Below, in pieces: positions 1 to 49,056 of a stretch of 51,940 bases of DNA. Position numbers and translations under genes: made by a program. Below the pieces are notes generated by a model. The model was given only the letters and a program-made list of their open reading frames with translations. It did no database searches and was not told the DNA's origin. Source of the stretch: Escherichia phage MLP1; the sequence record NC_079176, one strand, 5' to 3'. Numbering within the stretch: the stretch's first letter is position 1; every line of letters begins with the position of its first letter.

Positions 1-666
1 GCTGCTGCTGCCAGCTTAGCACAGGAAGCCACCATTGATGTGGTAACTGTAGAAGGCTTACAATCTCTGCTTACATCACCGGAAGGTGAAGCTGCTGTGA
101 TGAAGCGTTTCAAACTGATGAAGCTGGCTAAAAGCATTTACAACGTCTTAATTCTCGATAACACTGAGAAGTATGATACCAAGTCAATTGCACTATCTGG
201 TGTGAAGGATTTGATTTGGGAATATTTGAAGATAGTTGCTGCCGCAGTTGGTATTCCGGCTACACGTTTCCTTTCTGCATCTCCAGACGGTATGAATGCT
301 ACGGGCGAATCTGACCTCGTAAACTATATCGACTTGTTGACTGGCTTGCAGACTTCTGTGTTCGACCCTCGTTTAGATGTGGTAGACAAGATTGTCCAAG
401 CGCACTTTGGCATTGAAGAATATGACTATGAATGGTTAGATATCTTCCCTGAATCCAACGTTGAGAAAGCGAAGCGAGCTAAAGATTTGGCGTTCGCTAT
501 TGACCTACTGGTTAACAACGGAACTATTACCACACAAGTTGCAAACGAAGTCATGTTCCATTCGGGCGTGTTCGGAACTTGTGACCTCGGTAAGCCAAAT
601 CCTAAACCTCCTAACATCCAAAAGGGTAACGCAAGTGAAGCAAAGCCAAAACCTGGTTCAGCTTAA
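1..666 (+). CDS. virion protein, C-terminal fragment (possibly portal); 5' end outside window
   Basis: Frame open from base 1 with no start codon in window, stop TAA 664-666; sits directly upstream of scaffold and capsid genes; no diagnostic motif recognised. Confidence 0.4.
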   Translation, partial: AAAASLAQEATIDVVTVEGLQSLLTSPEGEAAVMKRFKLMKLAKSIYNVLILDNTEKYDTKSIALSGVKDLIWEYLKIVAAAVGIPATRFLSASPDGMNATGESDLVNYIDLLTGLQTSVFDPRLDVVDKIVQAHFGIEEYDYEWLDIFPESNVEKAKRAKDLAFAIDLLVNNGTITTQVANEVMFHSGVFGTCDLGKPNPKPPNIQKGNASEAKPKPGSA

Positions 667-748
667 CGACGAAGATACCGTGAATGAAGTAGTTTTGTTA
701 ACCGACAAGGCTACTCTAACGACCCGTCGTTTACGTGACTCTGGCGAA

Positions 749-1699
749 ATGATTGCAGAATGCACCATCGCTCGTACTGGCATTATGCTGTACAAAGCGA
801 AAGAACTTGGTGAGATTGCAAAACATCTGGACCCAGAATCTATTTGCCGTGTTCGCACCAAGCCGGAAGTATTATTTGATGAAGCAACCATTGAAGGTTG
901 TCGCTCAATTCCGGTTACTATCGGCCATCCAAAAGATGACGTTAACACGAAGAACAACAAAGAACTCCAGAAAGGGTTCATCGAAGGTCGTCCAGTTGCA
1001 GACGGTTCTTTCTTGGCTGCATCAATCGTTTTGAATGACGAGCAAGCCATCCGATTAGTTGATTCTGGCGTTGACCAAATCTCCCTGGGCCATAATGCCG
1101 AACTGGCTGTTGCAGAAGATGCTGATGCAGACTTCGACAAAGTTCGTATTATCCCCAACCATGCTGCAATTGTTGTTCGTGGTCGTGCTCAGACTACTCG
1201 CATTGGCGACTCTGGTGAAGAGATTTCCATTGTTGACAAAGCAACCTTTGATGTTGTTGAAGCAGAGCGTGATGCAGCATTGGATAAAGTTTCCACTCTG
1301 GAACAGAAGCTCGCTGATGCAGAAACTGCACGCCTATCCGATGAAGCCATTCAGGCTGAGGTAGACAAGCGTGTTGTTGCTCGTACAGCATTGCTCATTG
1401 ACGTTGCCCGTTTGGGTGATGAATTTTCCAAGCTTGATTTCTCTGGCAAGACTGATGCAGAAGTTAAGTTGGCTGTTGTTAATAAGTTGCATGACAAGGA
1501 CTTCGGTGAGAAGAGTGAAGATTACATCTCCGCTCGTTTCGATGCGGCACTTGAAGATTGTGATTCCATTACTTTGGGCGATGCCCTGAACCAATCTATG
1601 CAATTCACTGCTAAGAAAGATTCAGAAGCTCGTAAGCCTAAAGTTTCTATTTCCGAAGAAGCTAACAAACGTCGTTTAGAACGCTTCAACTCTTTATAA
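749..1699 (+). CDS. putative head scaffolding / prohead-maturation protein
   Basis: Between portal-like and capsid genes; C-terminal half acidic and helical (EAERDAALDKVSTLEQKLADAETARL); start uncertain (ATG 749, alternatives GTG 680 or TTG 695). Confidence 0.4.
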   Translation: MIAECTIARTGIMLYKAKELGEIAKHLDPESICRVRTKPEVLFDEATIEGCRSIPVTIGHPKDDVNTKNNKELQKGFIEGRPVADGSFLAASIVLNDEQAIRLVDSGVDQISLGHNAELAVAEDADADFDKVRIIPNHAAIVVRGRAQTTRIGDSGEEISIVDKATFDVVEAERDAALDKVSTLEQKLADAETARLSDEAIQAEVDKRVVARTALLIDVARLGDEFSKLDFSGKTDAEVKLAVVNKLHDKDFGEKSEDYISARFDAALEDCDSITLGDALNQSMQFTAKKDSEARKPKVSISEEANKRRLERFNSL

Positions 1700-1708
1700 G
1701 GTAAGACA

Positions 1709-2182
1709 ATGCCAAAGCAAGATTGGTCTATTAATACTGGTGCAGCATATGCGGGTGAGCAATATGGCCTGGCTACCACTAACTCTCAGCGACTGACTTT
1801 CAATGCTGAAACTGAAATGGCTAACTTTGGTTTAGCTGTTGTTCAGGGTACTGCTTCTAATCAGGTTAAGCCTGGTATTGGTGTCGACGGCACTGTTCTG
1901 GGCATTACTATGCGCCAGATTAACATCGAATCTGCAACTCGTCCTGGTGACGGTACTGTTGCAATCAAAGCTGGCTGGCCTCTGGGCGTTATGCTGTCTG
2001 GCCCAATCATGGTCAAACTGGTCACTGCAATCACTGATAAGAACATTGGTGTGTCTGCCACTGGTCAATTTGGTGGTGTTGGTGCTGGTTATACTGCCGC
2101 TACCAACCTGACTGCACTTCGCTACCCTGCTGCTGCTGGTGATGTTGTTCCGGTCATGATTAACGTAGTCCCAAAGTCGTAA
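1709..2182 (+). CDS. capsid-associated (decoration-like) protein, zero-frame product
   Basis: 157-aa ORF with AAGGT ribosome-binding site, immediately upstream of major capsid gene; ends at TAA 2180-2182 just after a slippery heptamer. Confidence 0.5.
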   Translation: MPKQDWSINTGAAYAGEQYGLATTNSQRLTFNAETEMANFGLAVVQGTASNQVKPGIGVDGTVLGITMRQINIESATRPGDGTVAIKAGWPLGVMLSGPIMVKLVTAITDKNIGVSATGQFGGVGAGYTAATNLTALRYPAAAGDVVPVMINVVPKS

Positions 2183-2475
2183 CGCCACCTCCAGCACCGA
2201 CCGTTACTGCGGTAGCGGCGGCTGTGACTGCTGATGCTTCAACTACGGATGCTACCGTAACTGTTGATAAACTGTTTACGTTTGCAAACTCTGTTGCTAG
2301 CGACTACAACTTCACTGTTGACCCAGCGGTCGCCGGAGTAACTGTGGCGGCTAATGGTACTATAACTGTTGCAACTGCAACGATTGGTACTGCGACTTCT
2401 GCAACAATCAAAGCAACTCATAAGACTGCTCCTGGTGTAACTGCTACTAAAGCAATCACCATTACGCACCCTTAA
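2170..2475 (+). CDS. Ig-like C-terminal extension reached by -1 frameshift from the 1709 ORF
   Basis: Heptamer C CCA AAG at 2170-2176 in zero frame; -1 frame opens at 2164 right after its own TAA 2161-2163 and encodes a Pro-rich linker (VVTPPPAPTVTA) then a Thr/Val-rich beta-type domain to TAA 2473-2475. Confidence 0.5.
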   Translation, partial: PKVVTPPPAPTVTAVAAAVTADASTTDATVTVDKLFTFANSVASDYNFTVDPAVAGVTVAANGTITVATATIGTATSATIKATHKTAPGVTATKAITITHP

Positions 2476-2519
2476 GTTTAATTGGCGTAGAATAATCTGC
2501 GCCTAATGGAATAAATTTA

Positions 2520-3527
2520 ATGCCAAAGATGATTAAACTGGCCGACGGTTCTGAATTTGAACTGAATGATGCCATCACCCGTATCCAGGACTCTGGCACC
2601 GTTGTTTTGAATGACGACGACGCAGTGTTCTTTCAACGTCAGCTTGAGTTCATTGAAGCTCAAACTTACGACACCCTGTATCCTGAACTGGAAGCTCGTG
2701 CTGCTTTCGGTGTTGATACTACTGGCGGCGCTGGTGTTAACACGCTGACCTACCGTTCATACAACCATGTTGGTAAAGCTCAGGTAATCAACGCCCGTGC
2801 AACCGACCTGCCGAAGTCTAGCATTTCTGGCAAAGAATACAGCGTAACTGTTAAATCAGTTGGTACTGCATTCGATTACGACATTGACGAAGTAGCATCT
2901 GCTGCTGTAACTGGTCTGCCGCTGGAAACTCGTAAAGCAAACGCTGCTATCCGAGGTTACGAGCAGTATGTTAACTCTGCTGCATGGTACGGCGACCAGG
3001 CTAACGGCTTCGTTGGCTTCTTCGAAAACCCAGACATTACCAAAGCAACTGTTGCTCAGGGTGCTGGCGCTTCTACTAAGTGGGTCGAGAAGACTCCGAC
3101 CGAAGTTATTGCCGACCTGACTGCTGCTGTGTCTGCAATGTATGCCTCTACTCTGAAAATCATGCGCCCTGATGAAATCTGGATGCCTGTTGAGCATGAG
3201 CAGTACATCTTCAACACCGCACGTTCTGAACAGTCTGATAAGACGATTGGTCAGTTCTTCATTGCCAACAACCAGTTCATCAACTCCCGTGACAAAATCA
3301 AGGGTCTGAACGCAATCAAAGGTCACGGCGATGCTGGTTCTGATTGCTTCGTAGTTGTTTGCCGCAATGCAATGGGCAACCGTACTTTCCGTCTGCGTGA
3401 GCCCCTGCCGCTGACCTGGCAACCAGTGCAGCTTCATGGCCTGATTTATGAAGTACCTGGCCGTGGTCGTTTCGCTGGCTTCCAAACGATGTATCCGGCA
3501 GCAATCTCTATCAACTCCGGCATCTAA
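2520..3527 (+). CDS. major capsid protein (putative)
   Basis: 335-aa ORF in capsid position after scaffold/decoration genes; host-like high-expression codon choice; followed by a stable hairpin. Confidence 0.65.
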   Translation: MPKMIKLADGSEFELNDAITRIQDSGTVVLNDDDAVFFQRQLEFIEAQTYDTLYPELEARAAFGVDTTGGAGVNTLTYRSYNHVGKAQVINARATDLPKSSISGKEYSVTVKSVGTAFDYDIDEVASAAVTGLPLETRKANAAIRGYEQYVNSAAWYGDQANGFVGFFENPDITKATVAQGAGASTKWVEKTPTEVIADLTAAVSAMYASTLKIMRPDEIWMPVEHEQYIFNTARSEQSDKTIGQFFIANNQFINSRDKIKGLNAIKGHGDAGSDCFVVVCRNAMGNRTFRLREPLPLTWQPVQLHGLIYEVPGRGRFAGFQTMYPAAISINSGI

Positions 3528-7672: not shown

Positions 7673-7848
7673 CTCAGAAGTTCCCGGAAATAAAATACTT
7701 CCTGCACCGTCCTGTAATAGAGGACAGTTCTCTCTGTTCTCTTAAAGAACTCTCGGACGGAACCTACTCTATTATGGATTTGTTAACTTTCCACGCAATA
7801 CTTGATTTGCGTAATGAACTAAAACCTAAAGAAGAAGACAATGGCTAA
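7570..7848 (+). CDS. tail assembly chaperone -1 frameshift extension (long form)
   Basis: -1 frame has TGA at 7567-7569 then stays open from the heptamer at 7570-7576 to TAA 7846-7848, overlapping the tape-measure start at 7841. Confidence 0.5.
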   Translation, partial: FFQARARTQRTQTVGGGGSIQNGRAEEFESGNDLTQKFPEIKYFLHRPVIEDSSLCSLKELSDGTYSIMDLLTFHAILDLRNELKPKEEDNG

Positions 7849-10800
7849 GAACTTAAAAGATTTAATGAAGCTATCCGAGGCCGAGCTAATCGGCATGGGT
7901 GCTCAATATGGTCTGTCCTTCAATCCCGGTATGCGCAAACGAGATATGGCTCAGCAACTTGAATCAAGTGCTGCGTCAGGTTGGATGGAAACAAATTCAC
8001 AGCTTTTGGGCGAACCAGATTCCCAAATGTACGAGGAGGAATCCTCTTACGGGACTTCTGATATGATTTCAGATGCAGCACACGTAGCACAGATGATTTC
8101 TGGTGCTGGGCTGACTGAAACATTCCATGCTGCAATGAACGGACCAGGACACCATGTAGAAGCAGTTCACGCATACATGGAACAACTTGGTGTATCCACT
8201 GATGATGTTTGGATGCACATGCCTAAAGCCAACCCCAACAAGTCGGAAGGACATTGGGGAATGCTTAATTCGTACATGCGAGATACTCTTGCAGGTCATC
8301 AAGATATTATGCCTGAACTTGCCGGACATTATACCGGCAATATCATGGATGAATATTCCACAAACCGTGGAGATATTGCCAAGTCGTTTGGTTATCTTGC
8401 CCACATGTATGTTGACCGTGAACAGTACGACAACCCAGACCGCTATGCACGAGATGTTTATCGTGTAGCCAAACGTTTAGAATCAGAATTGCCGCAAAAC
8501 TTCCGAGAAGTTGCTGCCGTATCTGCAATGAATGTAGGAAATAAGTCGGGGCCAAAACTTTCATACATGGATTCATTGCCTCAACTTGGTTCTGAATCTG
8601 TTGTTGGGGATATTCTACATCCTCGACAACCTCTTAACGCATCTGGTCTTCCGATGGGTTCGTTTGGTGGAGGCATTAAGGCTGAATATTCCCTATCTGC
8701 ATCCTTGTCTGGTTCTCCAGGTTGGTCTGATGTAAGCAAGACACTCTACCAAGATGTTTCTGGCGTAGTTAAATCTGCGGCAAAAGTTTATTCTGGTGGT
8801 GCTGAAAGAGGGATGAATGCGTATCGCACTCAATCTTCTGACAGGGATTTGATTCTGGACTCCGCCTCTCGTTATGCAGACATTGCAGACGTTCGTTCTG
8901 GGTACGATAACCTTAAGAAAGATATTGGCGATGACCCTCGTTACTCTGGTTCATCTATTCGTGGCGTTCTTGAGAATGCTCACCAATATAATGAAGCAGA
9001 AGTTTCTCGAACATTTGACCCTGCCGAACGTTTAAGAAATACTGGACCTACTGAACTTAGTACATCCAGTGAGTTTACGGCAAATTTAAATGAACCGACA
9101 AGTTGGAACTCTGCAAGAGATAGAAGAGAGTCTATTGCTATTGCAAATCTCGATAGTGCTAGCGTTGGACAGCATAGTTCGGTTAAGTACCATGATGCGC
9201 TCGAGCAAGGTACGCAGGAGTGGCTTGATTTTCGTAAGCAGTATGATATTACTGGCTCTACTATTGGTGATTATTTGGGCCACAACCCCGCAACCAATAA
9301 TAGCCCAATACATACAATGGGCGAAAAGATTGGCCTCACAGTAAGAAAGGATTCGCCACGAGCGCGTGAGAACTTTGAGCGTGGACATAGATTAGAGGCG
9401 TGGGCGAGGCCCAGGGTAGGTGAACGGTATGGGATTGAGATAACTGAAACTGGTGCAATCACAAACGACAACTACCCTGGCATGATGTACTCGCCGGATG
9501 GGTTAATTGGTGATGATGCTTTGTGGGAACATAAAGCTCCAAATAACTTTAAAGATTTGGAAACAACTCCAAACTACATGGACCAGATGCAACTTGGTAT
9601 GCATTTGAGTGGTCGTAGTCGCACACTGTTTACCCAAACTGTTGGTGAAGAATCTAGAAGTCAGTGGGTTGAAGCCGACCCAACGTGGTTTGAACGTAAC
9701 AAGAACAAGATTGAATCCTCTCAAGCACGTATGAATGCTGGCCGCGAGTTTATGGAAAGCTCCGACCTTGATGGCAAAGACCTTGTTAATGAAACCCGCA
9801 AAGTTATGTCCGGTGATGGGATTTGGGGCTATCAGACTCGTGACCACAGGGAAGGTGAGGGATACACTGCTGGCAAGCGCGGGATGGCTAAATTCAGTGC
9901 CACTGCTGGTACAGCCGATGACCCATTCATAGGCAACCGTACCAGTGCCGGAGTTGGCGAAGCTACAGCCTCTGCCGTAGGCTCTGACAGCACGACTGGC
10001 AATGACCTGATGGCAGTATCTGTCAAGAAAGGTATCCTCGCTGCTCAGGAAGAAAACAAGCTGCGTGGACAAGATGCTGACTTTGGTGGCGATGGTGGTC
10101 GTGGCGGTGGTGGTGGCTTCTGGGATACCTTCGATGCAAGCAGTTACGGCATTGGTGGAGGCGGTTCCGGTGGCGGTGGTCGTGGTGGTTGGAATGTTGG
10201 TGGCAGCTTCTCAGATGACTTCGGTCGTGCTGGTGGTGCATTGGCTGCTGGCGTAGCTGGTGGCAGCATAGGCTCACTATCCAATGGTGCAATGAATGCC
10301 CTCATGATGACCCCGTGGGGACGTGTGGCGGGTATGGCTATCGGTGCTACCCAGATTGGTAACGAGGCGCTCGAAGGTCTGAACGATTTCTACGGAAACT
10401 CTTTAGACGCTGGTGTCAATAACCCTAATGAATATTCTTCCATGTCACAGGGCTTGGAGATGTTAGGGCTTAATCAGCAACAAGCTGGCCGACTCAATCG
10501 AACCACACATAGTGCCTATAACACCCTCCTGAATGGCGACCCTAGCGGCGCTGTCAACATCGTTCAGGGAACCCGTGGTCTTATCACCATTGGCGACATT
10601 CGTGCGGCACAGGGCGACCCTGTAGCCTTAGCGCGGGTAATGCGTGAACGTGGTCAGGAGCGGGGCTGGAGTCAGGCTCGCATCGCTGGTGCTATGGAGA
10701 TGGCAGGACTGGATGGCATGGCTCGCGCCTATGACCGTACAGATTACAGCGTGAACGAGGCTCAGGAGAACGTAAGCCGTGGTGCCAACTCACAGTATGC

Positions 10801-11536
10801 CGATGGTATTGCACAGCTAGGAATAGCGCAGACGGAGCGTGCTGGGGTGCTGCCAGGATACGCAGTCCCGCAAGCTGCAATATCCTACGGGAGTTCATTT
10901 ATCGAAGCAGGTGGAGATGCGGCCAGAGTAGCGCGTACAGCGTCAAATGGTTTAGCTGATACTACCAGAACGGTATATGACTTTATCGCAGGAGAAGAGT
11001 CAGGAAACCGCGATTTGAACGCAGATGGTTCGGTGGTTACATCTCCGACTGGTGCCAAAGGTCGTATGCAGGTTCTTGATTCAACTTCCCGTGACCCAGG
11101 ATTCGGCGTTAAACCTGCCCGTGATAACTCACTGGAAGAGCGTGCTCGCGTTGGTCGTGACTACTATGATGCAATGCTCAAGCGTTACAATGGTGACGCT
11201 GAGAAGGCTATGGCGGCGTATACGGATGGTGCTGGAACTGTTGATGATGCTATCAACAATCACGGAACTGACTGGCTCAATGCTGTTCCTCTACAGGCAC
11301 AGAACCGCGTCAAGAAGTACCGCGAATGGGCTTCTCAAGGTGATTCTATTGCAGAAGGTGCAACTGGCTTCACCAGAAACGGACTGTCCTACGGGCAGAC
11401 ACAGGCCACTGTGGTTAACGTTGAAGTCAAAGCTACCGTAAACAATAAGCAAGCGTCTGCAACCGTGTCAACTCCGAACGGTCAAACTGTTACCCAAACA
11501 ATCAACATGGGTAATGGTGCAATGGAACGTAGATAA
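7841..11536 (+). CDS. tape-measure-like virion protein with internal lambda-exonuclease/YqaJ-like domain, Gly-rich segment and C-terminal lytic transglycosylase domain
   Basis: 1231 aa, between chaperone and baseplate genes. Near aa 450-580: EQGTQEW..R..YDITGS, SPDGL..D..WEHKAP, YMDQMQLGM (compare lambda Exo EQGDDAW..ITAS, SPDGL..LELKCP, YMAQVQYSM). aa 745-790 GGDGGRGGGGG repeats. aa 1050-1130: AGEESG, GAKGRMQV, AAYTDGAG (transglycosylase-like). Confidence 0.6.
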   Translation: MAKNLKDLMKLSEAELIGMGAQYGLSFNPGMRKRDMAQQLESSAASGWMETNSQLLGEPDSQMYEEESSYGTSDMISDAAHVAQMISGAGLTETFHAAMNGPGHHVEAVHAYMEQLGVSTDDVWMHMPKANPNKSEGHWGMLNSYMRDTLAGHQDIMPELAGHYTGNIMDEYSTNRGDIAKSFGYLAHMYVDREQYDNPDRYARDVYRVAKRLESELPQNFREVAAVSAMNVGNKSGPKLSYMDSLPQLGSESVVGDILHPRQPLNASGLPMGSFGGGIKAEYSLSASLSGSPGWSDVSKTLYQDVSGVVKSAAKVYSGGAERGMNAYRTQSSDRDLILDSASRYADIADVRSGYDNLKKDIGDDPRYSGSSIRGVLENAHQYNEAEVSRTFDPAERLRNTGPTELSTSSEFTANLNEPTSWNSARDRRESIAIANLDSASVGQHSSVKYHDALEQGTQEWLDFRKQYDITGSTIGDYLGHNPATNNSPIHTMGEKIGLTVRKDSPRARENFERGHRLEAWARPRVGERYGIEITETGAITNDNYPGMMYSPDGLIGDDALWEHKAPNNFKDLETTPNYMDQMQLGMHLSGRSRTLFTQTVGEESRSQWVEADPTWFERNKNKIESSQARMNAGREFMESSDLDGKDLVNETRKVMSGDGIWGYQTRDHREGEGYTAGKRGMAKFSATAGTADDPFIGNRTSAGVGEATASAVGSDSTTGNDLMAVSVKKGILAAQEENKLRGQDADFGGDGGRGGGGGFWDTFDASSYGIGGGGSGGGGRGGWNVGGSFSDDFGRAGGALAAGVAGGSIGSLSNGAMNALMMTPWGRVAGMAIGATQIGNEALEGLNDFYGNSLDAGVNNPNEYSSMSQGLEMLGLNQQQAGRLNRTTHSAYNTLLNGDPSGAVNIVQGTRGLITIGDIRAAQGDPVALARVMRERGQERGWSQARIAGAMEMAGLDGMARAYDRTDYSVNEAQENVSRGANSQYADGIAQLGIAQTERAGVLPGYAVPQAAISYGSSFIEAGGDAARVARTASNGLADTTRTVYDFIAGEESGNRDLNADGSVVTSPTGAKGRMQVLDSTSRDPGFGVKPARDNSLEERARVGRDYYDAMLKRYNGDAEKAMAAYTDGAGTVDDAINNHGTDWLNAVPLQAQNRVKKYREWASQGDSIAEGATGFTRNGLSYGQTQATVVNVEVKATVNNKQASATVSTPNGQTVTQTINMGNGAMERR

Positions 11537-11570: not shown

Positions 11571-11611
11571 AACATTATTTGAATATGTATTAATTTCAAT
11601 AGGTGTATAAC

Positions 11612-22263: not shown

Positions 22264-23382
22264 ATGGCTTACACTACCTTTTCACAAACCAAGAATAACC
22301 AACTATTAGAACCAATGTTCTTTGGTCAGAACGTCAACGTTGCTCGCTATGACCAACAGAAGTATGGCATATTCGAGAAGTTGATTGAGAAACAATTGTC
22401 ATTCTTCTGGCGACCGGAAGAGGTAGATGTTTCACAGGACCGTATTGATTATCAGAAGCTCCCACCAAATGAGCAGCACATTTTCACCAGTAATTTGCGC
22501 TATCAAATCCTTCTGGACTCCATTCAGGGACGTGGACCTAACACAGTTTTGCTACCAATCGTTAGCATTCCTGAGCTAGAAACTTGGATTGAAACTTGGT
22601 CTTTCTCTGAGACTATCCATTCACGTTCTTACACCCACATCATTCGTAATATTGTTACAGACCCAAGCATTATCTTTGATGAAATCGTAACTAACGAACA
22701 CATCAAAGCACGAGCAATTGGCATCTCCCAATATTATGACGAACTTCAACAACTCACTGCATTATGGCAGTTGTTCGGAGAAGGGAACCATGCTGGTCAT
22801 GAAATTAGTCTGCGAGAGTTGAAGAAGAAGCTCTATCTGTGCCTCATGTCCATCAATGCACTGGAAGCAATTCGATTCTATGTCAGCTTTGCTTGCTCAT
22901 TTGCCTTCGCTGAACGTAAGCTAATGGAAGGAAATGCCAAGATTATTCGACTGATTGCACGAGATGAAGCACTACATTTGACCGGAACTCAGCACATGTT
23001 GAATATTCTGGCGAGTGGTAAAGATGACCCAGAAATGGGCGAAATTGCTCAAGAATGTCGTGAAGAATGCCAGAAATTGTTCGAAGATGCTGCTCAACAG
23101 GAGAAAGATTGGGCTGATTATCTGTTCAAAGATGGCTCCATGATTGGCTTAAACAAGCAAATTCTGTGCGGATATGTGGAATATATTACGAATATTCGTA
23201 TGCAAGCGGTTGGATTAGATGCTCCATTCAAAGGTGCAACTAACCCGATTCCATGGATTAACGCATGGTTGAATTCGGATGCTGTACAGGTTGCTCCACA
23301 GGAAACGGAGATTAGTTCATACCTGGTCGGGCAAATTGACTCCGAAGTTGATACCAATGCGCTCAGTGGATTCGAGTTGTAA
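22264..23382 (+). CDS. nrdB: ribonucleotide reductase class Ia small (beta) subunit
   Basis: Near-colinear with E. coli NrdB from [11 protein letters not shown] to the C-terminal R1-binding tail; radical Tyr context RSYTHII and iron ligands ([16 protein letters not shown]) present. Confidence 0.9.
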
Positions 23383-23440
23383 CGATTAAATGGGAGAAGA
23401 GATTCGATGCGTTAGCGTCGTTTCTCTTTGAGCTAGAATA

Positions 23441-23468
23441 AAATAAGTAAGTTTTCAATATTACTTAT
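23441..23468 (+). other. perfect 9-bp-stem hairpin (AATAAGTAA/TTACTTATT)
   Basis: Read directly; 10-nt loop; lies in the gap between nrdB and the RNAP gene. Confidence 0.3.
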
Positions 23469-23537
23469 TCCCAATATTGCTACAATATTTAAAGTAGTAT
23501 TAGGAATGCGTAAAGTTCAAAACCAAGTGGTACATGG

Positions 23538-23591
23538 TCGGTCAACTGTATCTGGACATGGATTCGTTCACAATCGGTCAGCTGTATCTAG
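23538..23591 (+). repeat. direct repeat pair TCGGTCARCTGTATCTRG, spacing 36 bp
   Basis: Copies at 23538-23555 and 23574-23591; palindrome TGTTCGAACA at 23600-23609. Confidence 0.5.
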
Positions 23592-23678
23592 CCGGAATTT
23601 GTTCGAACAGTGGTCCGGCTATGTTATAAAAATTTTTATATAATTTTTTTTTTAATTTTAAATATTGTTACGGAATTA

Positions 23679-23730
23679 ATGAGACTCGAATTGTTTCAAT
23701 ATTAACGAGACTCAATCTGTGACAATATTA
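23679..23730 (+). repeat. tandem imperfect 26-bp direct repeat (about 20/26 identical)
   Basis: atgagactcgaattgtttcaatatta / acgagactcaatctgtgacaatatta, back to back. Confidence 0.5.
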
Positions 23731-23899
23731 TAATTTTATTTTTGGGCCAGCGGGGAGGGGGAAGTTGTGACATTATTATTTTAAAATTTTTATCTCCGAG
23801 GAGGGGAAGCCCAACGTCCTATCGGACTTAAATACGGTCCCTACCCCCAACTTTTTCCTGTAGCCTATCGGCTTTCAAACAACACCAAGTTAGGTAGTG

Positions 23900-23921
23900 G
23901 GTCAAGGTCAAGGTCAAAGTC
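23900..23921 (+). repeat. (GGTCAA)x3 tandem hexamer
   Basis: ggtcaaggtcaaggtcaaagtc read directly. Confidence 0.5.
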
Positions 23922-23955
23922 TCCGTGCTGTGCTAACAATGGCACAGGTTTGTGA

Positions 23956-23972
23956 TATTAGTTGGACGTGAA
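23956..23972 (+). promoter_or_regulatory. copy of recurrent 17-bp motif (tATTAGTTGGAcGTGAA), candidate phage promoter
   Basis: Member of an 8-copy family with consensus CATTAGTTGGATGTGAA, all in + orientation; 67 bp upstream of RNAP start. Confidence 0.4.
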
Positions 23973-24038
23973 TTGTGTAATGGCTACGCTATTATAATCC
24001 GTTTCATTCAAATCATACACAATCTTGGAGACTTACAA

Positions 24039-25979
24039 ATGACTACTATCACTACTCAAACTATCAAATCTGTTGTTCCTGCTATCACTGCTCTGGTATA
24101 CCGTGCCAAAGAGAAGCAGAACTACATGGTTCCACAGACTTGTGCTATTGCTGCCTTAGCCATATTCAAGATGATGACGTCTTTCACGCGTGATGACGTT
24201 ATTCCTGCTATCTCGATGGTTGAACTGGCTTCTGCTTCCATTGCTGATGCCAACCGTTACAACAACGACTTAAAGTCAATGCACTATGTTGACCCAGCTA
24301 TCAACCTCATTGGTTTGGCTAAACACTTCGGTTTCATCACCATGAACGAAGACAAATCGTTCCAGATGACTGATGCGTGGGTTGAACTGGTTACAACCAA
24401 AGATACCTCAGTTCCATTCACTGAGCGGGTAACAACTGAATCTCGTCGTAAGCCTTTCGTTAAGGGTGGCAAAGTTAAGCCATCCAAGACTCTGAAAGCT
24501 GCAATCGAATTCCTGCAAGATACTGAATATCACGTTGATGCAACAATGGTTAAGGTTATCTCTTCCATGTTAGAACAACGTACATTTGGTGGCTTACAGA
24601 TGCCAGAAGCAATCCAGACTGAACTCCATGTTTGGAACAATGCTGTAGCAATGGTTGGTCAGGACACTCTGTTCTCTGACTACTTTGCTGATAACCGTGG
24701 TCGTTTATATCACGTAGCATGTGCTGGTCCTAACCCACAATCATCTGACTTTGCTCGTTGCCTGTATTCCCACAATGTTGAGAACACTGTGAGCAAGTTT
24801 AATGCTGATGGTTCAACAACTCTGGCATACAACATGTTCATGCTTGAGCTGGAAGATATTGCTGGTGGAGACTGGACTTCTGCAAAACGTTTAACTTATG
24901 TTGCACAGAATCCTGCTGGTTCTTTGGCTCGTATGCTGAACATGCCTAAAGGTGAGCGTCCTTCCAAGCCATTCACTTATGTTCGTCTGGCTCTGGATTG
25001 GTTCAAGTTTGAGACTACAGGTGAGTGTGATTCTCGTGTAGGCTTTGGCTTAGATGCTAAATGTTCTGGTACTCAATACTTGGCATTCATTGCTGGTAAC
25101 ATGGAGATGGCTCGTGCAACAGGTCTGGTTGATTCTGAGACTAAAGCATCTGACCCATACCAGTTATCTCTTCGTGAACTGTTGAAGTTATTAGACCGTT
25201 CTTCAATGAAACCATCCGCTGAAATTATGGATGAATTCTTGAATCCGAAAGCTGGTCGTAAGTTTATCAAGACTCCATACATGGCTATTCAATATGGTGG
25301 TGGTAAAGCAGCATTAACTGGTTCTTCTGACTTCATTGCATACATGACAGAAGCTCTCCAGATTCCTATGGAGAAAGCTGATGCATTTGCTGAACTGTGT
25401 GTTGAAGCAATTCATAACGCATTGGGTGCTAAGATTAACATGTTCATTGAGAAAGCTGCTGATGCTGCATACAACCGTTGTGTTGAACTCAACAAAGAGT
25501 ACATCACATATAAGCACACTGATGGTCAAGTTGTAATGAAGCCTTGCTTCCCATCTCGTGATGTTTGTGATGCATTCAGCATTCGTGTTGACTCTCAAAC
25601 TCGTGTCATCTTTGGTCAGATTCAGGAAGAGAAACCTTGGACCATTCGTGAGTCCAATCCGACTAAAGAAGAATTCAAACGTACCTTCGTTGTTAACTAC
25701 ATTCAAGGTATTGACGCATTGGTTGCTCGTACTGTTGCAGTCAAAGCTAAAGAAGCTGGTCTTCGTGGCTTTACTTCAATTCACGACTGTTTCCGTTGCT
25801 GCTTAGCTGATGCTCCACTCATGATGGAAGTAATTCGTTCTGCTTATATTGAAATCTTTGTTAATAATAATCAGTTTGAATCTCTATCTAAGCAACTTGG
25901 TGGCATCAACATGTACCATGAGAACATCGTAACAGAAGAGCTTCTGATGAGCGAACACGCTTACTACTTCTGTCAATAA
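24039..25979 (+). CDS. single-subunit T7-type DNA-dependent RNA polymerase, compact form
   Basis: DAKCSGTQY (T7 motif A DGSCSGIQHF), RKFIKTPYMAIQYGGG (motif B), FTSIHDCF (motif C, T7 IHDSFG); ATG 24039 has GGAG ribosome-binding site; ORF track's upstream start at 23952 has none. Confidence 0.85.
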   Translation: MTTITTQTIKSVVPAITALVYRAKEKQNYMVPQTCAIAALAIFKMMTSFTRDDVIPAISMVELASASIADANRYNNDLKSMHYVDPAINLIGLAKHFGFITMNEDKSFQMTDAWVELVTTKDTSVPFTERVTTESRRKPFVKGGKVKPSKTLKAAIEFLQDTEYHVDATMVKVISSMLEQRTFGGLQMPEAIQTELHVWNNAVAMVGQDTLFSDYFADNRGRLYHVACAGPNPQSSDFARCLYSHNVENTVSKFNADGSTTLAYNMFMLELEDIAGGDWTSAKRLTYVAQNPAGSLARMLNMPKGERPSKPFTYVRLALDWFKFETTGECDSRVGFGLDAKCSGTQYLAFIAGNMEMARATGLVDSETKASDPYQLSLRELLKLLDRSSMKPSAEIMDEFLNPKAGRKFIKTPYMAIQYGGGKAALTGSSDFIAYMTEALQIPMEKADAFAELCVEAIHNALGAKINMFIEKAADAAYNRCVELNKEYITYKHTDGQVVMKPCFPSRDVCDAFSIRVDSQTRVIFGQIQEEKPWTIRESNPTKEEFKRTFVVNYIQGIDALVARTVAVKAKEAGLRGFTSIHDCFRCCLADAPLMMEVIRSAYIEIFVNNNQFESLSKQLGGINMYHENIVTEELLMSEHAYYFCQ

Positions 25980-26020
25980 CATTAATTGGTCAAGGATGAC
26001 CACAAACTTGGAGACTTAAA

Positions 26021-26119
26021 ATGAATACTCAACAAATCAAACAAATCGAAAATTGTTTCAATCCTCACCACACTTGCAGCATGATTGATTTATCTCGTCC
26101 TACAGTGGGGGGAGACTAA
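26021..26119 (+). CDS. small ORF (32 aa), hypothetical
   Basis: Initiation region CTTGGAGACTTAAAATG is near-identical to the RNAP one (CTTGGAGACTTACAAATG). Confidence 0.3.
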   Translation: MNTQQIKQIENCFNPHHTCSMIDLSRPTVGGD

Positions 26120-26227
26120 AGACTTCTTAGAATTGTTGTCAGAATATAAACAAGAGTCGCATGTATTATTGCACGCATTCTTGCATAATTCTGGATATTT
26201 CGATACAGAGATACCGTTCTGATATTT

Positions 26228-26250
26228 GGGAGCTTCGGCTCCCTTTTCTT
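26228..26250 (+). terminator. intrinsic terminator (GGGAGC-UUCG-GCUCCC then UUUUCUU)
   Basis: Perfect 6-bp GC stem, UUCG tetraloop, T-run; read directly. Confidence 0.55.
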
Positions 26251-26275
26251 GTTTCAACTAGTCTTAAGGTTGTAG

Positions 26276-26292
26276 CATTAGTTGCATGTGAA
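26276..26292 (+). promoter_or_regulatory. 17-bp motif copy CATTAGTTGcATGTGAA
   Basis: 24 bp upstream of ATG 26316. Confidence 0.4.
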
Positions 26293-26315
26293 TAACAAAC
26301 AATTTGGAGAATATC

Positions 26316-26480
26316 ATGTTCACAGTTCATTATCAAATAGTCGGCAAGTTTGAGAATTACGAAGAGTGCAATACATTAGCTGAAGCTCGTGCATTTGCTG
26401 CATCTTTAAAAGATACGGTATATGTTGATATTGTAGATGGTGATAAAGAGTATCCACTTGTAGCACCTGCATTACACTGA
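26316..26480 (+). CDS. small hypothetical protein (54 aa)
   Basis: GGAG ribosome-binding site 7 nt upstream; preceded by motif copy. Confidence 0.4.
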   Translation: MFTVHYQIVGKFENYEECNTLAEARAFAASLKDTVYVDIVDGDKEYPLVAPALH

Positions 26481-26531
26481 TTCCCAATATTCGAGCAATA
26501 TTACTGCATGTAGTATTGCTCCGATATTCGA

Positions 26532-26548
26532 CATTAGTTGGATGTGAA
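26532..26548 (+). promoter_or_regulatory. 17-bp motif copy CATTAGTTGGATGTGAA (consensus)
   Basis: Exact consensus. Confidence 0.4.
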
Positions 26549-27412
26549 GTAACAGAATACGGAGAAGTATTCCGCATGTCATGTTGAAATCATTCTAGAA
26601 ACATTTCAGCATGTCAACTAAACACACAGTGTTGTAATGATGTGGCAATCATTGAACTCCCTGTCTTTGGCCAGACAAAGTTCCAGCAACCATGTGTGAA
26701 GTAGGAATATTATTCGAAACTGTTCTTCAACCCAAGCATGTTCACTTGTTTCCAATTGAGCTTCATCTCCTATTATCAAGGCCCACCCACAAGCCGGGAG
26801 ATAACTTTGGCAAGACTGGAACTTTTGGACATGCTTCTTTCTTTCAATCAGAATTCGAAAGAAGAGAAGAGGTCGGACAATATGGCAACAGAGCATCGAG
26901 ATTAGTCTCGTAGCCGCCCCGATTTTGAGCAACAAATATTGTGGCAATATTGTCATAGTATGGCATGTAAATATTGCTACAAATTAGCATGTTAGAATGT
27001 GGCAGAATTGTTAGAGGACTAATCACCTCGAAGATACAATTGTCTACCAATCCGGCATGTTAATTTTGTAACAGTATTTGTGCCAATTTCGCATGTAATA
27101 AATGTATCAATATTCACCCAATATTCTTGCAACCCGCATGAATACTGGCTTCCAGCCAAGCGAAGGCTTTATCATCGCATGTAAATATTGTGACAATATT
27201 GGGATAAAACCCTTTATTTATTTCTGTAGTTTTTGTATTAAATGGTCGGTTTTCCGTACCTGTTGCGCCACTTCTTGATGTGCCAAATACATTCAAGGTG
27301 GGAGTAAACCTGTAATTAATGATGCATGTTTGATTGTGACTAAATTCGTCTATTTGGCAGATGAATTGGTTGCAATTAAGCATGTCCATTTATCATTAGT
27401 TGCATGTGAATA

Positions 27413-27429
27413 AGACCAAATCTCTGTAA
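27413..27429 (+). promoter_or_regulatory. 17-bp motif copy CATTAGTTGcATGTGAA
   Basis: Read directly. Confidence 0.4.
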
Positions 27430-27698
27430 ATTCTGCTGAAATTGTGTGACAGATTTTAGAGAGATTATGTCTCCAAGCTAATCATTGTAGTTTTCGGCAC
27501 TTAATGTGTCACATATATAGCCTGTGAAAAACGTGTGGTTTATTGCTGGATTGCAACGCGCCCACCAGACTAGGAAGTCCATGATGGCGGCACACACAGG
27601 AATACTATATAACTCCCTGATTCTTTAAGGTGGATTAAGGTAATACAAGACCTCCACAATCGTTATGACGGGAGTTTTCTTTTAACTTAGGAGAATAA

Positions 27699-27950
27699 AT
27701 GGATACCATCAACAAACGTGCAAAATTTGCTGACCTGTCAGAAGGTCAAATCTTCACTTACAATTCTATCAAATGTATTAAGGTGGAAGGTGAGTGTGGT
27801 TTATACAACACTGTAAGATTTCATGACTCAAGCCGTGCATGTAAACTTAAAGACAGTGATGTTGTTGAAATTGAAATCGAATTAGAGCCAGATGGTTCAA
27901 ATGATGAAATCATTCTGCGTAAAACTGTTGGATACACTAAAGGATTCTGA
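27699..27950 (+). CDS. hypothetical early protein
   Basis: Strong ribosome-binding site TTAGGAGAATAAATG. Confidence 0.45.
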   Translation: MDTINKRAKFADLSEGQIFTYNSIKCIKVEGECGLYNTVRFHDSSRACKLKDSDVVEIEIELEPDGSNDEIILRKTVGYTKGF

Positions 27951-30107: not shown

Positions 30108-30158
30108 GGCGCGTTAAATTAACAAGGAGCATTCATTGAGTGTTCCTGATTAATTCAA

Positions 30159-30175
30159 CATTAGTTGGATGTGAG
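30159..30175 (+). promoter_or_regulatory. 17-bp motif copy CATTAGTTGGATGTGAg
   Basis: 75 bp upstream of the SSB-tail gene. Confidence 0.4.
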
Positions 30176-30249: not shown

Positions 30250-30627
30250 ATGGCACAATATTCAGACGTAAACACTGGCATCATCGGTTCCAATGGCTTC
30301 AAGAAAGACCCAAAACATCCTGACGTTCGTGGACGTATTAACGTTGACGGAATCTGGTATTGGGTGTCTGGTTGGAACAAGCAAGCCAATGGTAATGAAT
30401 TTACCTCGCTGGCACTCACCATCATGACTCAAGAACAGGTCGATGAAATGTTGCGTAAGCGTGAAGAGAAAGCTAAAGCCAAAGCTCAACCTCAAGCCGC
30501 AGCTCAACAGCACCAGCAAACTCAGCAACCTACTGCACAACAGCAAGCACCTGCCCAGCAACAGCCTCAGAGCAGTAACTATAATCCGAACGAGCCGAAA
30601 GACTTCGACGACGATATTCCATTCTAA
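30250..30627 (+). CDS. small protein with the host SSB C-terminal tail (ends DFDDDIPF)
   Basis: Last 8 residues match the E. coli SSB C-terminal tip; preceded by a Gln/Ala/Pro-rich low-complexity linker and a 70-aa Trp/Gly-rich N-terminal domain. Confidence 0.6.
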   Translation: MAQYSDVNTGIIGSNGFKKDPKHPDVRGRINVDGIWYWVSGWNKQANGNEFTSLALTIMTQEQVDEMLRKREEKAKAKAQPQAAAQQHQQTQQPTAQQQAPAQQQPQSSNYNPNEPKDFDDDIPF

Positions 30628-34248: not shown

Positions 34249-34318
34249 TTCCAGGCGGGTTTCTTCGAAGTGCCAAGCGGGTTTTGTACTCGCATTGGCC
34301 TTCGGCTTTAGTCTGAAA

Positions 34319-34334
34319 CATTAGTGGGATTTGA
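34319..34334 (+). promoter_or_regulatory. diverged 17-bp motif copy (CATTAGTgGGATtTGA)
   Basis: Shares TCTGAAACATTAGT upstream context with the 34463 copy. Confidence 0.3.
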
Positions 34335-34462
34335 TTCTGACCTCTTAGGGAAGAAAGGCATTATACACCTATCGCCAAATGGGTGTCAAGAACTTTCTTC
34401 ATTTATTTTAATTTATTCTTATTATTATTCTTTTTGTTTGGAATATTGGAATAATTCTGAAA

Positions 34463-34479
34463 CATTAGTTGGAATTGAA
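34463..34479 (+). promoter_or_regulatory. 17-bp motif copy CATTAGTTGGAaTTGAA
   Basis: Lies in an 860-bp ORF-poor gap, about 630 nt upstream of the next gene. Confidence 0.35.
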
Positions 34480-36396: not shown

Positions 36397-36426
36397 GTCG
36401 TTTGTTAAATCAGAGCAGTCCTGACA

Positions 36427-36443
36427 CATTAATTGGATGTGAA
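36427..36443 (+). promoter_or_regulatory. 17-bp motif copy CATTAaTTGGATGTGAA
   Basis: 78 bp upstream of ATG 36521. Confidence 0.4.
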
Positions 36444-43915: not shown

Positions 43916-44160
43916 TGCGTGTTTTAGCTCTATACGACAAACAACAGATGGAACTTCATCAAGCGGCTGGAGATATTCCGGCCACAGAATTGGCGGTGTC
44001 TGCAATTGAGATGCACGCCTCGGCATTATTTGGAAGTGATTATCAGGGCGATATTACCTATGAAGGTGCCCTGAAAGCATTAAAGGAATCGAAAGATTTC
44101 GCAGTAACACAATCTATCCTGTCCGACCTGGACATTGACTCTCACATTATTGAAATTTAA
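43915..44160 (+). CDS. small acidic hypothetical protein
   Basis: ATG overlaps polymerase stop; Asp/Glu-rich. Confidence 0.4.
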   Translation: MRVLALYDKQQMELHQAAGDIPATELAVSAIEMHASALFGSDYQGDITYEGALKALKESKDFAVTQSILSDLDIDSHIIEI

Positions 44161-48870: not shown

Positions 48871-49056
48871 ATGCGCACAATTCAATGTAGTAACTGTCAT
48901 TACGAAGTGGCAGAGGATGATTTCATCACTCAGCAATGTCCTATCTGTGATTCATTCATGCCACTAAATCGGCTGATTTTAAAAGCTGATTCTAGTTTGG
49001 GCAACATCATTCGCATCAATCCCGTGCAAACTCAGCCATTAGTGGATTGTGATTAA
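48871..49056 (+). CDS. small zinc-ribbon protein
   Basis: CSNCHYEV...CPICDSF. Confidence 0.4.
   Translation: MRTIQCSNCHYEVAEDDFITQQCPICDSFMPLNRLILKADSSLGNIIRINPVQTQPLVDCD

What the first reader, a model, noticed from the sequence alone, without database searches (positions are those of the whole stretch)
24039..25979. Compact single-subunit RNAP (about 647 aa) in a contractile-tail phage
All three catalytic motifs of the T7 family are present in a protein about 25 percent shorter than T7 RNAP, in a genome that otherwise has Mu/P2-type tail genes. The short N-terminal region implies different promoter recognition or melting.
Basis: partly seen in the sequence, partly recalled or inferred. Interest (0 to 1): 0.4.

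Follow-up and report, generated by a model that had tools for sequence, protein, structure and literature searches.

The report
Known compact RNA polymerase of GJ1-like myoviruses
The gene is real and intact, but it is the already described T7-type RNA polymerase that defines the phiEcoM-GJ1 group of contractile-tailed phages (family Chaseviridae); what remains open is how its very short front domain finds and opens promoters.

Summary

It is not new. The window is a circularly permuted genome of a phiEcoM-GJ1-like myovirus (Chaseviridae, Carltongylesvirus). The protein is 99% identical to Yersinia phage PYps16N RNAP and 96% to GJ1 gp01. GJ1 was published in 2008 as a myovirus with a podovirus-like RNA polymerase.

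The short length is conserved, not a frameshift. Homologues down to 34% identity are mostly 604-670 aa.

Relative to T7 RNAP (883 aa), about 165 aa are missing from the N-terminal domain, about 35 from the thumb and about 30 from a fingers insertion. The remaining ~120-aa N-terminal core has a winged-helix-like fold with a beta-hairpin. No Pfam RPOL_N match was found. A specificity-loop-like hairpin is retained.

The 17-bp motif CATTAGTTGGATGTGA occurs 9 times, all on the coding strand, and is conserved in four genera. It is the same element already annotated as a putative phage promoter in GJ1. No experimental test of it was found.

The parts
24039..25979 (+). CDS of the 646-aa single-subunit RNA polymerase (coordinates include the stop codon)
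24026..24032 (+). Shine-Dalgarno sequence TGGAGAC, 6 nt before the ATG
   Evidence: Sequence. The same SD and start are listed for ST32 ORF1.
24039..24482 (+). Reduced N-terminal domain, aa 1-148: a helical core of about 120 aa with winged-helix-like topology, followed by a linker
24336..24368 (+). Beta-hairpin, aa 100-110; candidate counterpart of the T7 intercalating hairpin and the 'wing' of the winged helix
   Evidence: DSSP strands 100-102 and 107/108-110 in both models. A weak hhalign register places it opposite the T7 stretch GMVSLHRQNAGVVGQDSETIEL (about residues 225-246 by counting from the printed alignment). That this T7 stretch holds the intercalating hairpin is from my own knowledge of T7 RNAP.
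24435..24479 (+). Conserved basic linker SRRKPFVKGGKVKPS, aa 133-147, containing invariant R136
   Evidence: Alignment A1 consensus RRxxxVKGGKVKPSK, with R136 invariant in 63 sequences.
24483..24662 (+). Shortened thumb region, aa 149-208; aligns to T7 317-411 with about 35 residues missing
   Evidence: hmmsearch of profile A1 against T7 RNAP: profile 161-620 aligns to T7 317-850, with a 35-residue gap in the thumb.
25053..25055 (+). Motif A catalytic Asp, D339 (= T7 D537)
   Evidence: Invariant in A1. Aligned to T7 AFDGSCSG.
25257..25298 (+). Motif B / O-helix, R407-G420: RKFIKTPYMAIQYG (= T7 R627, K631, Y639, G640)
   Evidence: Invariant R407, K411, Y419, G420. Alignment to T7.
25554..25658 (+). 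Specificity-loop-like beta-hairpin region, aa 506-540
   Evidence: Predicted strands 506-510, 513-516, 522-525 and 534-537. Aligned to the T7 stretch RLNLMFLGQFRLQPTINTNKDSEIDAHKQE (about residues 739-770 by counting from the printed alignment). That this T7 stretch is the specificity loop is from my own knowledge. The stem is conserved and the tip varies among five genera.
25782..25787 (+). Motif C, H582-D583 (= T7 H811-D812)
   Evidence: Invariant in A1. Alignment to T7 IHDSF.
23702..23731 (+). Sigma-70-like promoter candidate for early host transcription of the RNAP gene: TTAACG-18-TATTAT
   Evidence: Consensus scan, 9 of 12 matches. It is homologous to the 'putative host sigma70 promoter' annotated at GJ1 364-393. 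This is weak evidence, because the number of sigma-70-like sites in the region is not above chance.
23955..23971 (+). Phage-promoter-like motif, 68 nt upstream of the RNAP ATG (2 mismatches)
   Evidence: The corresponding site is present upstream of the RNAP gene in GJ1 (572), Myduc (173) and 4HA13 (123).
26228..26253 (+). Terminator-like hairpin GGGAGCTTCGGCTCCC followed by a T-run; candidate end of the early RNAP transcription unit
   Evidence: Terminator scan.
26275..26291 (+). Phage-promoter-like motif GCATTAGTTGCATGTGA
26531..26547 (+). Phage-promoter-like motif, exact consensus (= GJ1 'putative phage promoter 1')
27393..27409 (+). Phage-promoter-like motif (= GJ1 'putative phage promoter 2')
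30158..30174 (+). Phage-promoter-like motif, exact consensus, 76 nt upstream of the ORF at 30250, which is taken to be the SSB gene by synteny with GJ1 gp15
   Evidence: A site at the same position before the annotated SSB gene occurs in GJ1 (7047), Myduc (9792) and Y2 (6897).
34318..34334 (+). Phage-promoter-like motif (= GJ1 promoter 4)
34462..34478 (+). Phage-promoter-like motif (= GJ1 promoter 5)
36426..36442 (+). Phage-promoter-like motif (= GJ1 promoter 7)
44023..44039 (+). Phage-promoter-like motif, 3 mismatches (= GJ1 promoter 8)

Best explanation
This is the phage-encoded T7-family single-subunit RNA polymerase of a phiEcoM-GJ1-like myovirus (Chaseviridae).

Shown:
- The ORF is intact and 646 aa long.
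- The palm, fingers and thumb fold is predicted with high confidence.
- The two catalytic aspartates (D339, D583), the O-helix residues R407/K411/Y419 and the DxRGR motif are all present and invariant.
- The compact size is conserved across a large clade.

Inferred model of infection:
1. Host RNA polymerase transcribes the gene early from the AT-rich leader. A sigma-70-like site lies at 23702, and a terminator-like hairpin lies at 26228.
2. The enzyme then transcribes the remaining genes, all of which lie on one strand.
3. It starts from conserved promoters of about 17 bp, CATTAGTTGGATGTGA(A). One of these lies upstream of its own gene, which would give positive feedback.
4. Later genes are reached partly by read-through.

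Inferred promoter reading: the retained specificity-loop hairpin (aa 506-540) and a minimal winged-helix-like N-terminal domain read the promoter. The wing of that domain, a beta-hairpin at aa 100-110, would stand in for the T7 intercalating hairpin. The T7 N-terminal extension, the segment around T7 148-205, part of the thumb and a fingers insertion are dispensed with.
For: Identity and integrity:
- ORF and SD.
- Pfam and PHROG matches.
- Near-identical annotated RNAPs in GJ1-like phages.
- 116 homologues, the full-length ones mostly 604-670 aa.
- Invariant catalytic residues.
- The alignment to T7 RNAP covers thumb to C-terminus: hhalign 98% probability, hmmsearch 2.8e-17.

Fold:
- AF2 model pLDDT 92.3, pTM 0.86.
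- Foldseek best hit is T7 RNAP, E 6e-19.

Promoter motif:
- 9 sites found against 0.27 expected, all on the coding strand.
- The core is conserved in GJ1, 4HA13, Myduc and Y2. The site before the SSB gene is conserved in four genera, and a site upstream of the RNAP gene in three relatives as well as the window.

Clade size: about 112 clusters at 50% identity score E<=1e-30. Most full-length ones are about 610-830 aa, and many align from the profile's first 4-20 positions.
Against: - No experiment links the enzyme to the motif. [quoted passage not shown] No biochemical or transcriptome study was found.
- Strong motif sites cluster at 23.9-36.5 kb. The structural gene block has only weak matches, at 11572 and 49036, so late expression needs read-through or another mechanism.
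- The correspondence between this N-terminal domain and the T7 one is statistically weak (hhalign probability 3%). I could not obtain a residue-level structural superposition.
- N4 RNAPII, the one characterised T7-like enzyme of similar total size, needs the cofactors gp1 and gp2 (PMC4496689).
- Sigma-70-like sites in the leader are no more frequent than chance.
Confidence: 0.75

Rival explanations
1. The polymerase is catalytically competent but depends on a factor, like N4 RNAPII or the mitochondrial RNAPs. The pared-down N-terminal domain cannot bind or melt duplex promoters by itself. A phage early protein, or a host protein, would recognise the 17-bp element or open the DNA and then recruit the enzyme.
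For: - The N-terminal domain is about 165 aa shorter than in T7, has no PF14700 match and has no significant profile similarity to the T7 N-terminal domain.
- N4 RNAPII (269 + 404 aa) requires gp1 and gp2, and T7's independence of factors is described as the exception in the family (PMC4496689).
- Many small early ORFs of unknown function follow the RNAP gene.
Against: - The motif is long (about 17 bp, roughly 20 bits) and T7-promoter-sized. This is unlike the minimal AT-rich -7 to +2 element of N4 RNAPII.
- A specificity-loop-like hairpin and a hairpin in the N-terminal domain are both retained and conserved.
- The enzyme is one polypeptide, not a heterodimer.
- No cofactor candidate was identified, although none was specifically searched for.
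Confidence: 0.3
2. The 17-bp motif is not this polymerase's promoter. It would instead be a binding site for another regulator, a processing signal or a replication element. The RNAP would use different, still unrecognised start sites.
For: - ICTV states that the promoters are unidentified.
- Two strong sites (26531, 27393) lie in a gene-free 1.2-kb stretch rich in other short repeats.
- The late genes lack strong sites.
Against: - All sites share one orientation, mostly in intergenic positions upstream of gene blocks.
- Sites are conserved at syntenic positions in four genera.
- The element has no dyad symmetry, which argues against a dimeric repressor site or a hairpin (sequence).
- Its upstream part, ATTAG, resembles the AT-rich upstream part of SP6- and K11-type promoters. 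This last point is from my own recollection and was not tested.
Confidence: 0.15
3. The short ORF is an artefact: a frameshift, a misassembly or a decaying gene that hides a longer T7-sized polymerase.
For: None found. The only observation in this direction is that some automatic gene calls extend the ORF upstream (P0001, 704 aa).
Against: - Full-length homologues down to 34% identity are mostly 604-670 aa.
- Five genera share the same N-terminal start, MTTITT/MSTITT.
- The in-frame extension is only 29 codons, and no other + strand ORF of 50 aa or more lies in the 656 bp upstream.
- The SD is correctly placed.
- The AF2 model is compact and confident from residue 6.
Confidence: 0.01

Closest known systems
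phiEcoM-GJ1 gp01 RNA polymerase and its orthologues in Chaseviridae (ST32 ORF1, PYps16N, Myduc gp01, Y2 gp01, 4HA13 0002)
   Same: It is the same gene. Protein identity is 95.6-99.2% to GJ1 and PYps phages and 66-77% to other genera. Length is the same (631-648 aa). The position is the same: first gene after the genome's left end, downstream of RNR-beta in this permuted assembly. The downstream motif sites are the same.
   Different: Nothing of substance; this is another isolate. In this collapsed, permuted assembly the terminal repeat cannot be seen.
T7 RNA polymerase (Autographiviridae; PDB 1CEZ, 1QLN, 3E2E)
   Different: - 237 aa shorter.
- No RPOL_N (PF14700) match, whereas all 120 listed T7-type homologues carry it.
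- By the hhalign register, the missing parts are approximately T7 1-69 and T7 148-205. About 35 aa of the thumb and about 30 aa of the fingers insertion are also missing.
- The loop that this weak register puts opposite T7 KRGKRPTAF (the AT-rich recognition loop, by my own knowledge) is reduced to a few residues.
- T7 H784 corresponds to an invariant Gln (Q556).
- The virion is a myovirus, not a podovirus.
Bacteriophage N4 RNAPII (gp15 + gp16; PDB 6DT7)
   Different: N4 RNAPII is a heterodimer. It binds only single-stranded DNA without sequence specificity, needs gp1 and gp2, and uses a minimal AT-rich -7 to +2 promoter (PMC4496689). Here there is one polypeptide and a conserved 17-bp motif.
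Mitochondrial RNA polymerases (yeast Rpo41, human POLRMT)
   Different: They are much larger, with N-terminal extensions, and need initiation factors: Mtf1 for Rpo41, TFAM and TFB2M for POLRMT (Table 1 of PMC4496689).

Membership tests
T7-like single-subunit RNA polymerase (Pfam RNA_pol PF00940) | Sequence match to the family model above its curated threshold | tested here: met
   PF00940 E 1.3e-17, 64.3 bits against a cut-off of 22. PHROG 414 E 8e-94.
T7-like single-subunit RNA polymerase (Pfam RNA_pol PF00940) | Catalytic aspartates of motif A and motif C (T7 D537, D812) | tested here: met
   D339 and D583 are invariant in 63 homologues and aligned to T7 D537 and D812.
T7-like single-subunit RNA polymerase (Pfam RNA_pol PF00940) | Motif B / O-helix residues (T7 R627, K631, Y639, G640) and the DX2GR motif (T7 421-425) | tested here: met
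   R407, K411, Y419, G420 and D218-R220-G221-R222 are invariant or nearly so. Alignments.
T7-like single-subunit RNA polymerase (Pfam RNA_pol PF00940) | Right-hand polymerase fold closest to solved ssRNAPs | tested here: met
T7-like single-subunit RNA polymerase (Pfam RNA_pol PF00940) | T7-type N-terminal promoter-binding domain (Pfam RPOL_N PF14700) | tested here: not met
T7-like single-subunit RNA polymerase (Pfam RNA_pol PF00940) | Specificity loop: a beta-hairpin in the fingers that reads the promoter | tested here: inconclusive
   A predicted hairpin at aa 506-540 aligns to the T7 stretch that holds the specificity loop, about residues 739-770. Base-reading residues cannot be assigned without a complex.
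T7-like single-subunit RNA polymerase (Pfam RNA_pol PF00940) | Factor-independent, promoter-specific transcription | not testable with these tools
   This needs in vitro transcription. No published test was found.
Chaseviridae (phiEcoM-GJ1-like myoviruses), genus Carltongylesvirus | Genome of about 52-56 kb, collinear with GJ1, with nucleotide similarity to members | tested here: met
   The window is 51,940 bp. The 6-kb region around the gene is 86-94% identical to TH33, TH28, Ecp_YSF, flopper, Bp10 and GJ1. ORF order matches the GJ1 annotation.
Chaseviridae (phiEcoM-GJ1-like myoviruses), genus Carltongylesvirus | Contractile-tail (myovirus) structural module together with a single-subunit RNAP | tested here: met
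   Pfam hits on window proteins: Baseplate_J, PF18352, DUF3383 (product annotated as sheath in relatives), DUF2612. Sheath and baseplate are annotated in GJ1, Myduc and Y2. ICTV definition.
Chaseviridae (phiEcoM-GJ1-like myoviruses), genus Carltongylesvirus | Long direct terminal repeats of about 3 kb that contain the RNAP gene | not testable with these tools
   Annotated in 4HA13 (1-3120) and Myduc (1-3202). The window is a single collapsed copy, so read data would be needed.
N4 RNAPII-type minimal, factor-dependent RNAP | Heterodimer of two gene products that split the polymerase | tested here: not met
   One uninterrupted ORF of 646 aa.
N4 RNAPII-type minimal, factor-dependent RNAP | Dependence on gp1- and gp2-like cofactors | not tested
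   No search for N4 gp1 or gp2 homologues was made.
N4 RNAPII-type minimal, factor-dependent RNAP | Short AT-rich promoter spanning -7 to +2 | tested here: inconclusive
   The candidate promoter here is a 17-bp motif that is not AT-rich, unlike the N4 RNAPII element. However, the motif has not been shown to be this enzyme's promoter, so the feature is not settled.

The most novel reading that the evidence does not exclude
The 646-aa chasevirus enzyme would be a self-sufficient, promoter-specific single-subunit RNAP. Its whole promoter-binding and melting module would be a winged-helix-like domain of about 120 aa, with the wing acting as the intercalating hairpin, plus a basic linker. It would lack the T7 N-terminal extension, a full AT-rich recognition loop and the segment around T7 148-205. 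I understand that last segment to refold at promoter escape; this is from my own knowledge and was not tested. The enzyme would therefore go from initiation to elongation without the large T7-type N-terminal rearrangement. It would also represent a broad and uncharacterised clade of compact ssRNAPs, with about 112 clusters at 50% identity.
Probability: 0.35. Interest if true: 0.55.

Novelty: already known. Interest (0 to 1): 0.25.

Why it matters
As a discovery it matters little. The gene, its unusual pairing with a contractile tail and the putative promoters were all published for phiEcoM-GJ1 in 2008, and the gene now defines an ICTV family.

The remaining value is mechanistic and practical.

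- No one appears to have tested this enzyme, and the ICTV profile says the family's promoters have not been identified.
- If a 73-kDa polypeptide recognises a 17-bp promoter without help, it would be among the smallest self-contained transcription systems known.
- It would show which parts of the T7 N-terminal domain are dispensable for promoter binding, melting and escape.
- It would add an orthogonal, compact polymerase and promoter pair for synthetic biology and in vitro transcription.

Tried and rejected
1. Frameshift or hidden longer ORF: rejected. The upstream 656 bp holds no + strand ORF of 50 aa or more, the in-frame extension is 29 codons, and length and N-terminus are conserved across genera.

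2. Sequence homology between this N-terminal domain and the T7 one: profile-profile comparison gave only 3% probability, E 0.014. The register it proposes, with the hairpin opposite the T7 stretch that holds the intercalating hairpin, is suggestive only.

4. An Rfam scan of 23300-27800, covering the leader and the gene-free stretch, found no match at E<=0.1.

5. The sigma-70 scan of the same region found 12 sites against 12.5 expected, so the host-promoter assignment rests only on homology to the GJ1 annotation.

6. Five full-text literature searches for biochemical or transcriptomic work on this enzyme found none. Two recent surveys of T7-like RNAPs do not mention chaseviruses. The 2008 GJ1 paper (PMC2223254) is not held in the library.

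7. Covariation between the specificity-loop tip and promoter positions 10-13 across five phages: there were too few independent genera to conclude anything.

8. A tRNA scan of the window found none.
Full report
**What is there.** Window 24039..25979 (+) is an uninterrupted ORF of 646 codons plus a stop. A TGGAGAC Shine-Dalgarno sequence lies at 24026-24032, six bases before the ATG. The same start was published for ORF1 of phage ST32, also 646 aa. The longest in-frame extension reaches only a GTG at 23952. The 656-bp gap back to the preceding gene, the ribonucleotide reductase small subunit ending at 23382, has no + strand ORF of 50 aa or more.

The protein matches Pfam RNA_pol (PF00940, E 1.3e-17, 64 bits against a cut-off of 22). 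It also matches PHROG 414 'RNA polymerase' (E 8e-94, residues 16-645 on profile columns 154-816).

**Where the window comes from.** The 6 kb around the gene is 86-94% identical in DNA to a set of E. coli, Yersinia and Shigella phages that includes phiEcoM-GJ1, TH33, flopper and Bp10. The protein is 99.2% identical to the Yersinia phage PYps16N RNAP and 95.6% to GJ1 gp01. It is 66-77% identical to the RNAPs of 4HA13, PM1, Erwinia Y2 and Proteus Myduc, and 33-37% to those of Aeromonas and Shewanella chaseviruses.

GJ1 is classified in Chaseviridae, Cleopatravirinae, Carltongylesvirus. The window is therefore a circularly permuted assembly of a GJ1-like genome. The structural genes come first (capsid, sheath-like DUF3383, Baseplate_J, the spike N-terminal domain PF18352). 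Then come lysis and RNR genes, the RNAP, early genes, replication genes and terminase.

**Prior knowledge.** The pairing of a myovirus virion with a T7-type polymerase is the title of the 2008 GJ1 genome paper, cited; the paper itself is not held. [quoted passage not shown] The core of the finding is therefore already known.

**Is the short length real?** Yes. A search of 5.8 billion proteins returned 116 homologues down to 34% identity. The full-length ones are mostly 604-670 aa, with a few longer gene calls, and all annotated ones carry PF00940 only. Five genera share the N-terminus MTTITT/MSTITT...KSVVPxI.

An exhaustive profile search of 1.84 billion cluster representatives found 112 clusters at E<=1e-30. 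Most full-length ones are about 610-830 aa, and many align from profile positions 4-20. Below about E 1e-26 the hits are of ordinary T7-type size, mostly about 720-860 aa, and align only from profile position about 140-160 onward. The short N-terminal domain thus marks a sizeable clade and is not detectably similar in sequence to the T7-type N-terminal domain.

**Catalytic equipment.** In an alignment of 63 homologues the following are invariant:
- D218, R220 and R222, with G221 nearly invariant (T7 D421-x-R-G-R425).
- D339 (T7 D537, motif A).
- R407, K411, Y419, G420 (T7 R627, K631, Y639, G640, motif B).
- H582, D583 (T7 H811, D812, motif C).

The correspondences come from profile alignments to T7 RNAP: hhalign 98.2% probability, hmmsearch E 2.8e-17 covering T7 317-850, and hhalign against a T7-family alignment. 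T7 H784 is replaced by an invariant Gln (Q556). The C-terminus ends in YYFCQ rather than FAFA.

**What is missing relative to T7 RNAP (883 aa).**
- The profile alignment starts at T7 residue 317 opposite query residue about 150. The query helix LKAAIEFLQDTEYHVD aligns to T7 YKAINIAQNTAWKIN. The N-terminal domain is therefore about 148 aa against about 316 in T7.
- About 35 residues are missing from the thumb.
- About 30 residues are missing from the fingers insertion, at the T7 stretch INGTDNEVVTVTDENTGEISEKVKLGT.

**The N-terminal domain.** Pfam RPOL_N (PF14700) is present in all 120 listed T7-type homologues. It is not detected here. A profile comparison of the two N-terminal domains is not significant (3% probability).

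The register that comparison proposes drops T7 1-69 and about 148-205 and shortens the loop opposite T7 KRGKRPTAF. From my own knowledge, that T7 loop is the AT-rich recognition loop. The same register puts the query hairpin GFITMNEDKSFQMTDAW (strands at 100-102 and 107/108-110) opposite T7 GMVSLHRQNAGVVGQDSETIELAPEY. From my own knowledge, that T7 stretch contains the intercalating hairpin.

I read this as a minimal helix-turn-helix-plus-wing module. It is compatible with being a stripped-down T7 promoter-binding domain, but homology is not proven.

A conserved basic linker follows (RRKPFVKGGKVKPSK, with R136 invariant). A four-stranded hairpin region at residues 506-540 aligns to the T7 stretch that I recognise as the specificity loop. 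It is conserved in its stems and variable at its tip among genera.

**The 17-bp motif.** ACATTAGTTGGATGTGA with up to 3 mismatches occurs 9 times against 0.27 expected, always on the + strand. The sites are at 23955, 26275, 26531, 27393, 30158, 34318, 34462, 36426 and 44023. Weaker matches lie at 49036, 11572 and 36094.

These are the same elements annotated as 'putative phage promoter 1-9' in the GJ1 record. The core CATTAGTTG...GTGA is conserved in 4HA13, Myduc (CATTAGTTGAGTGTGA) and Erwinia Y2. Some sites are syntenic: one sits just before the SSB gene in four genera, and one sits upstream of the RNAP gene in the window, GJ1, Myduc and 4HA13. The site at 23955 lies 68 nt before the RNAP start codon and would allow positive feedback.

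A terminator-like hairpin at 26228 (GGGAGCTTCGGCTCCC followed by a T-run) separates the RNAP and one small ORF from the first downstream motif. A sigma-70-like site at 23702 is homologous to the host promoter annotated in GJ1. Sigma-70-like sites in this region are not more frequent than chance.

**Most likely mechanism.**
1. Host RNAP makes the polymerase early.
2. The polymerase then drives the remaining one-strand genome from the 17-bp promoters.
3. It reads them with its specificity-loop hairpin and winged-helix-like N-terminal domain.
4. Late genes are reached partly by read-through.

The enzyme's identity and catalytic competence are well supported. The link to the motif and independence from cofactors are inferred.

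**Main rival.** The main rival is factor dependence, as in N4 RNAPII. That enzyme is of similar total size, lacks sequence-specific duplex binding and needs gp1 and gp2 (PMC4496689). The long, conserved motif and the retained hairpins argue against a purely N4 RNAPII-like mode, but they do not exclude a helper protein.

**Novelty and score.** The finding is already known. The only open part is mechanistic: no biochemical or transcript-mapping study of this enzyme was found in the held literature. Interest is therefore low to moderate.

Noticed in passing
L007:6881-21947 (Hafnia alvei NJFP02000002.1, about 2.785-2.800 Mb); L009:1-21899 (Pseudomonas contig SRR28603075_2): Homologues of this compact RNAP sit in apparently integrated chasevirus-like elements on bacterial contigs.

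In a 4.79-Mb Hafnia alvei contig the order is host genes, tyrosine integrase, holin, endolysin, a 648-aa RNAP, a gene-free gap, small ORFs, and ArdA.

In the Pseudomonas contig the order is myovirus baseplate genes, lysozyme, a 632-aa RNAP, small ORFs, and an integrase next to ahpC/ahpF.

ICTV describes the family as lytic, so temperate relatives may exist.
   Followed up: partly
window about 23620-26950 (by analogy with L003:1-3120 and L004:1-3202): In the 4HA13 and Myduc records the RNAP gene lies wholly inside the 3.1-3.2-kb direct terminal repeat predicted by PhageTerm. Virion DNA would then carry two copies of the polymerase gene, one at each end. The window is a collapsed, permuted assembly, so this cannot be seen directly.
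   Followed up: partly
window 26480-27699: A gene-free stretch of about 1.2 kb lies downstream of the RNAP gene. It is packed with short direct and inverted repeats, such as GCATGTAAATATTGTGACAATATT and CAATATTC...CAATATT. It also holds two strong copies of the 17-bp motif. An equivalent gap exists in GJ1, 4HA13, Myduc and the Hafnia element. There was no Rfam match. It could be an origin of replication, a cluster of protein-binding sites or the right boundary of the terminal repeat.
   Followed up: partly
window 23383-24038: The leader upstream of the RNAP gene is long (656 bp) and AT-rich. It contains tandem 26-nt repeats (23664-23715: ATTGTTxC..AAxGAGACTCxA), a T-run palindrome at 23624-23655, and terminator-like hairpins at 23405 and 23928. 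It probably contains the physical left end of the genome and the host promoters.
   Followed up: partly
window 7841-11536: The 1231-aa product at the position that GJ1 annotates as a large virion structural protein, noted there as a probable T4 gp5 analogue, has two Pfam hits. One is a YqaJ-like recombinase/exonuclease domain (aa 460-592). The other is a C-terminal SLT lytic transglycosylase domain. This is an unusual combination for a virion tail protein.
   Followed up: no
window, whole: ARAGORN finds no tRNA gene in the window. The GJ1 record annotates a tRNA-Arg that 'may contain an intron', and Myduc annotates a tRNA-Arg.
   Followed up: no
PP952070.1 (hit H6): A record named 'Staphylococcus phage Pel53', with host given as Staphylococcus hyicus, is 93% identical in DNA to this enterobacterial chasevirus region. 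The host assignment in that record looks doubtful.
   Followed up: no
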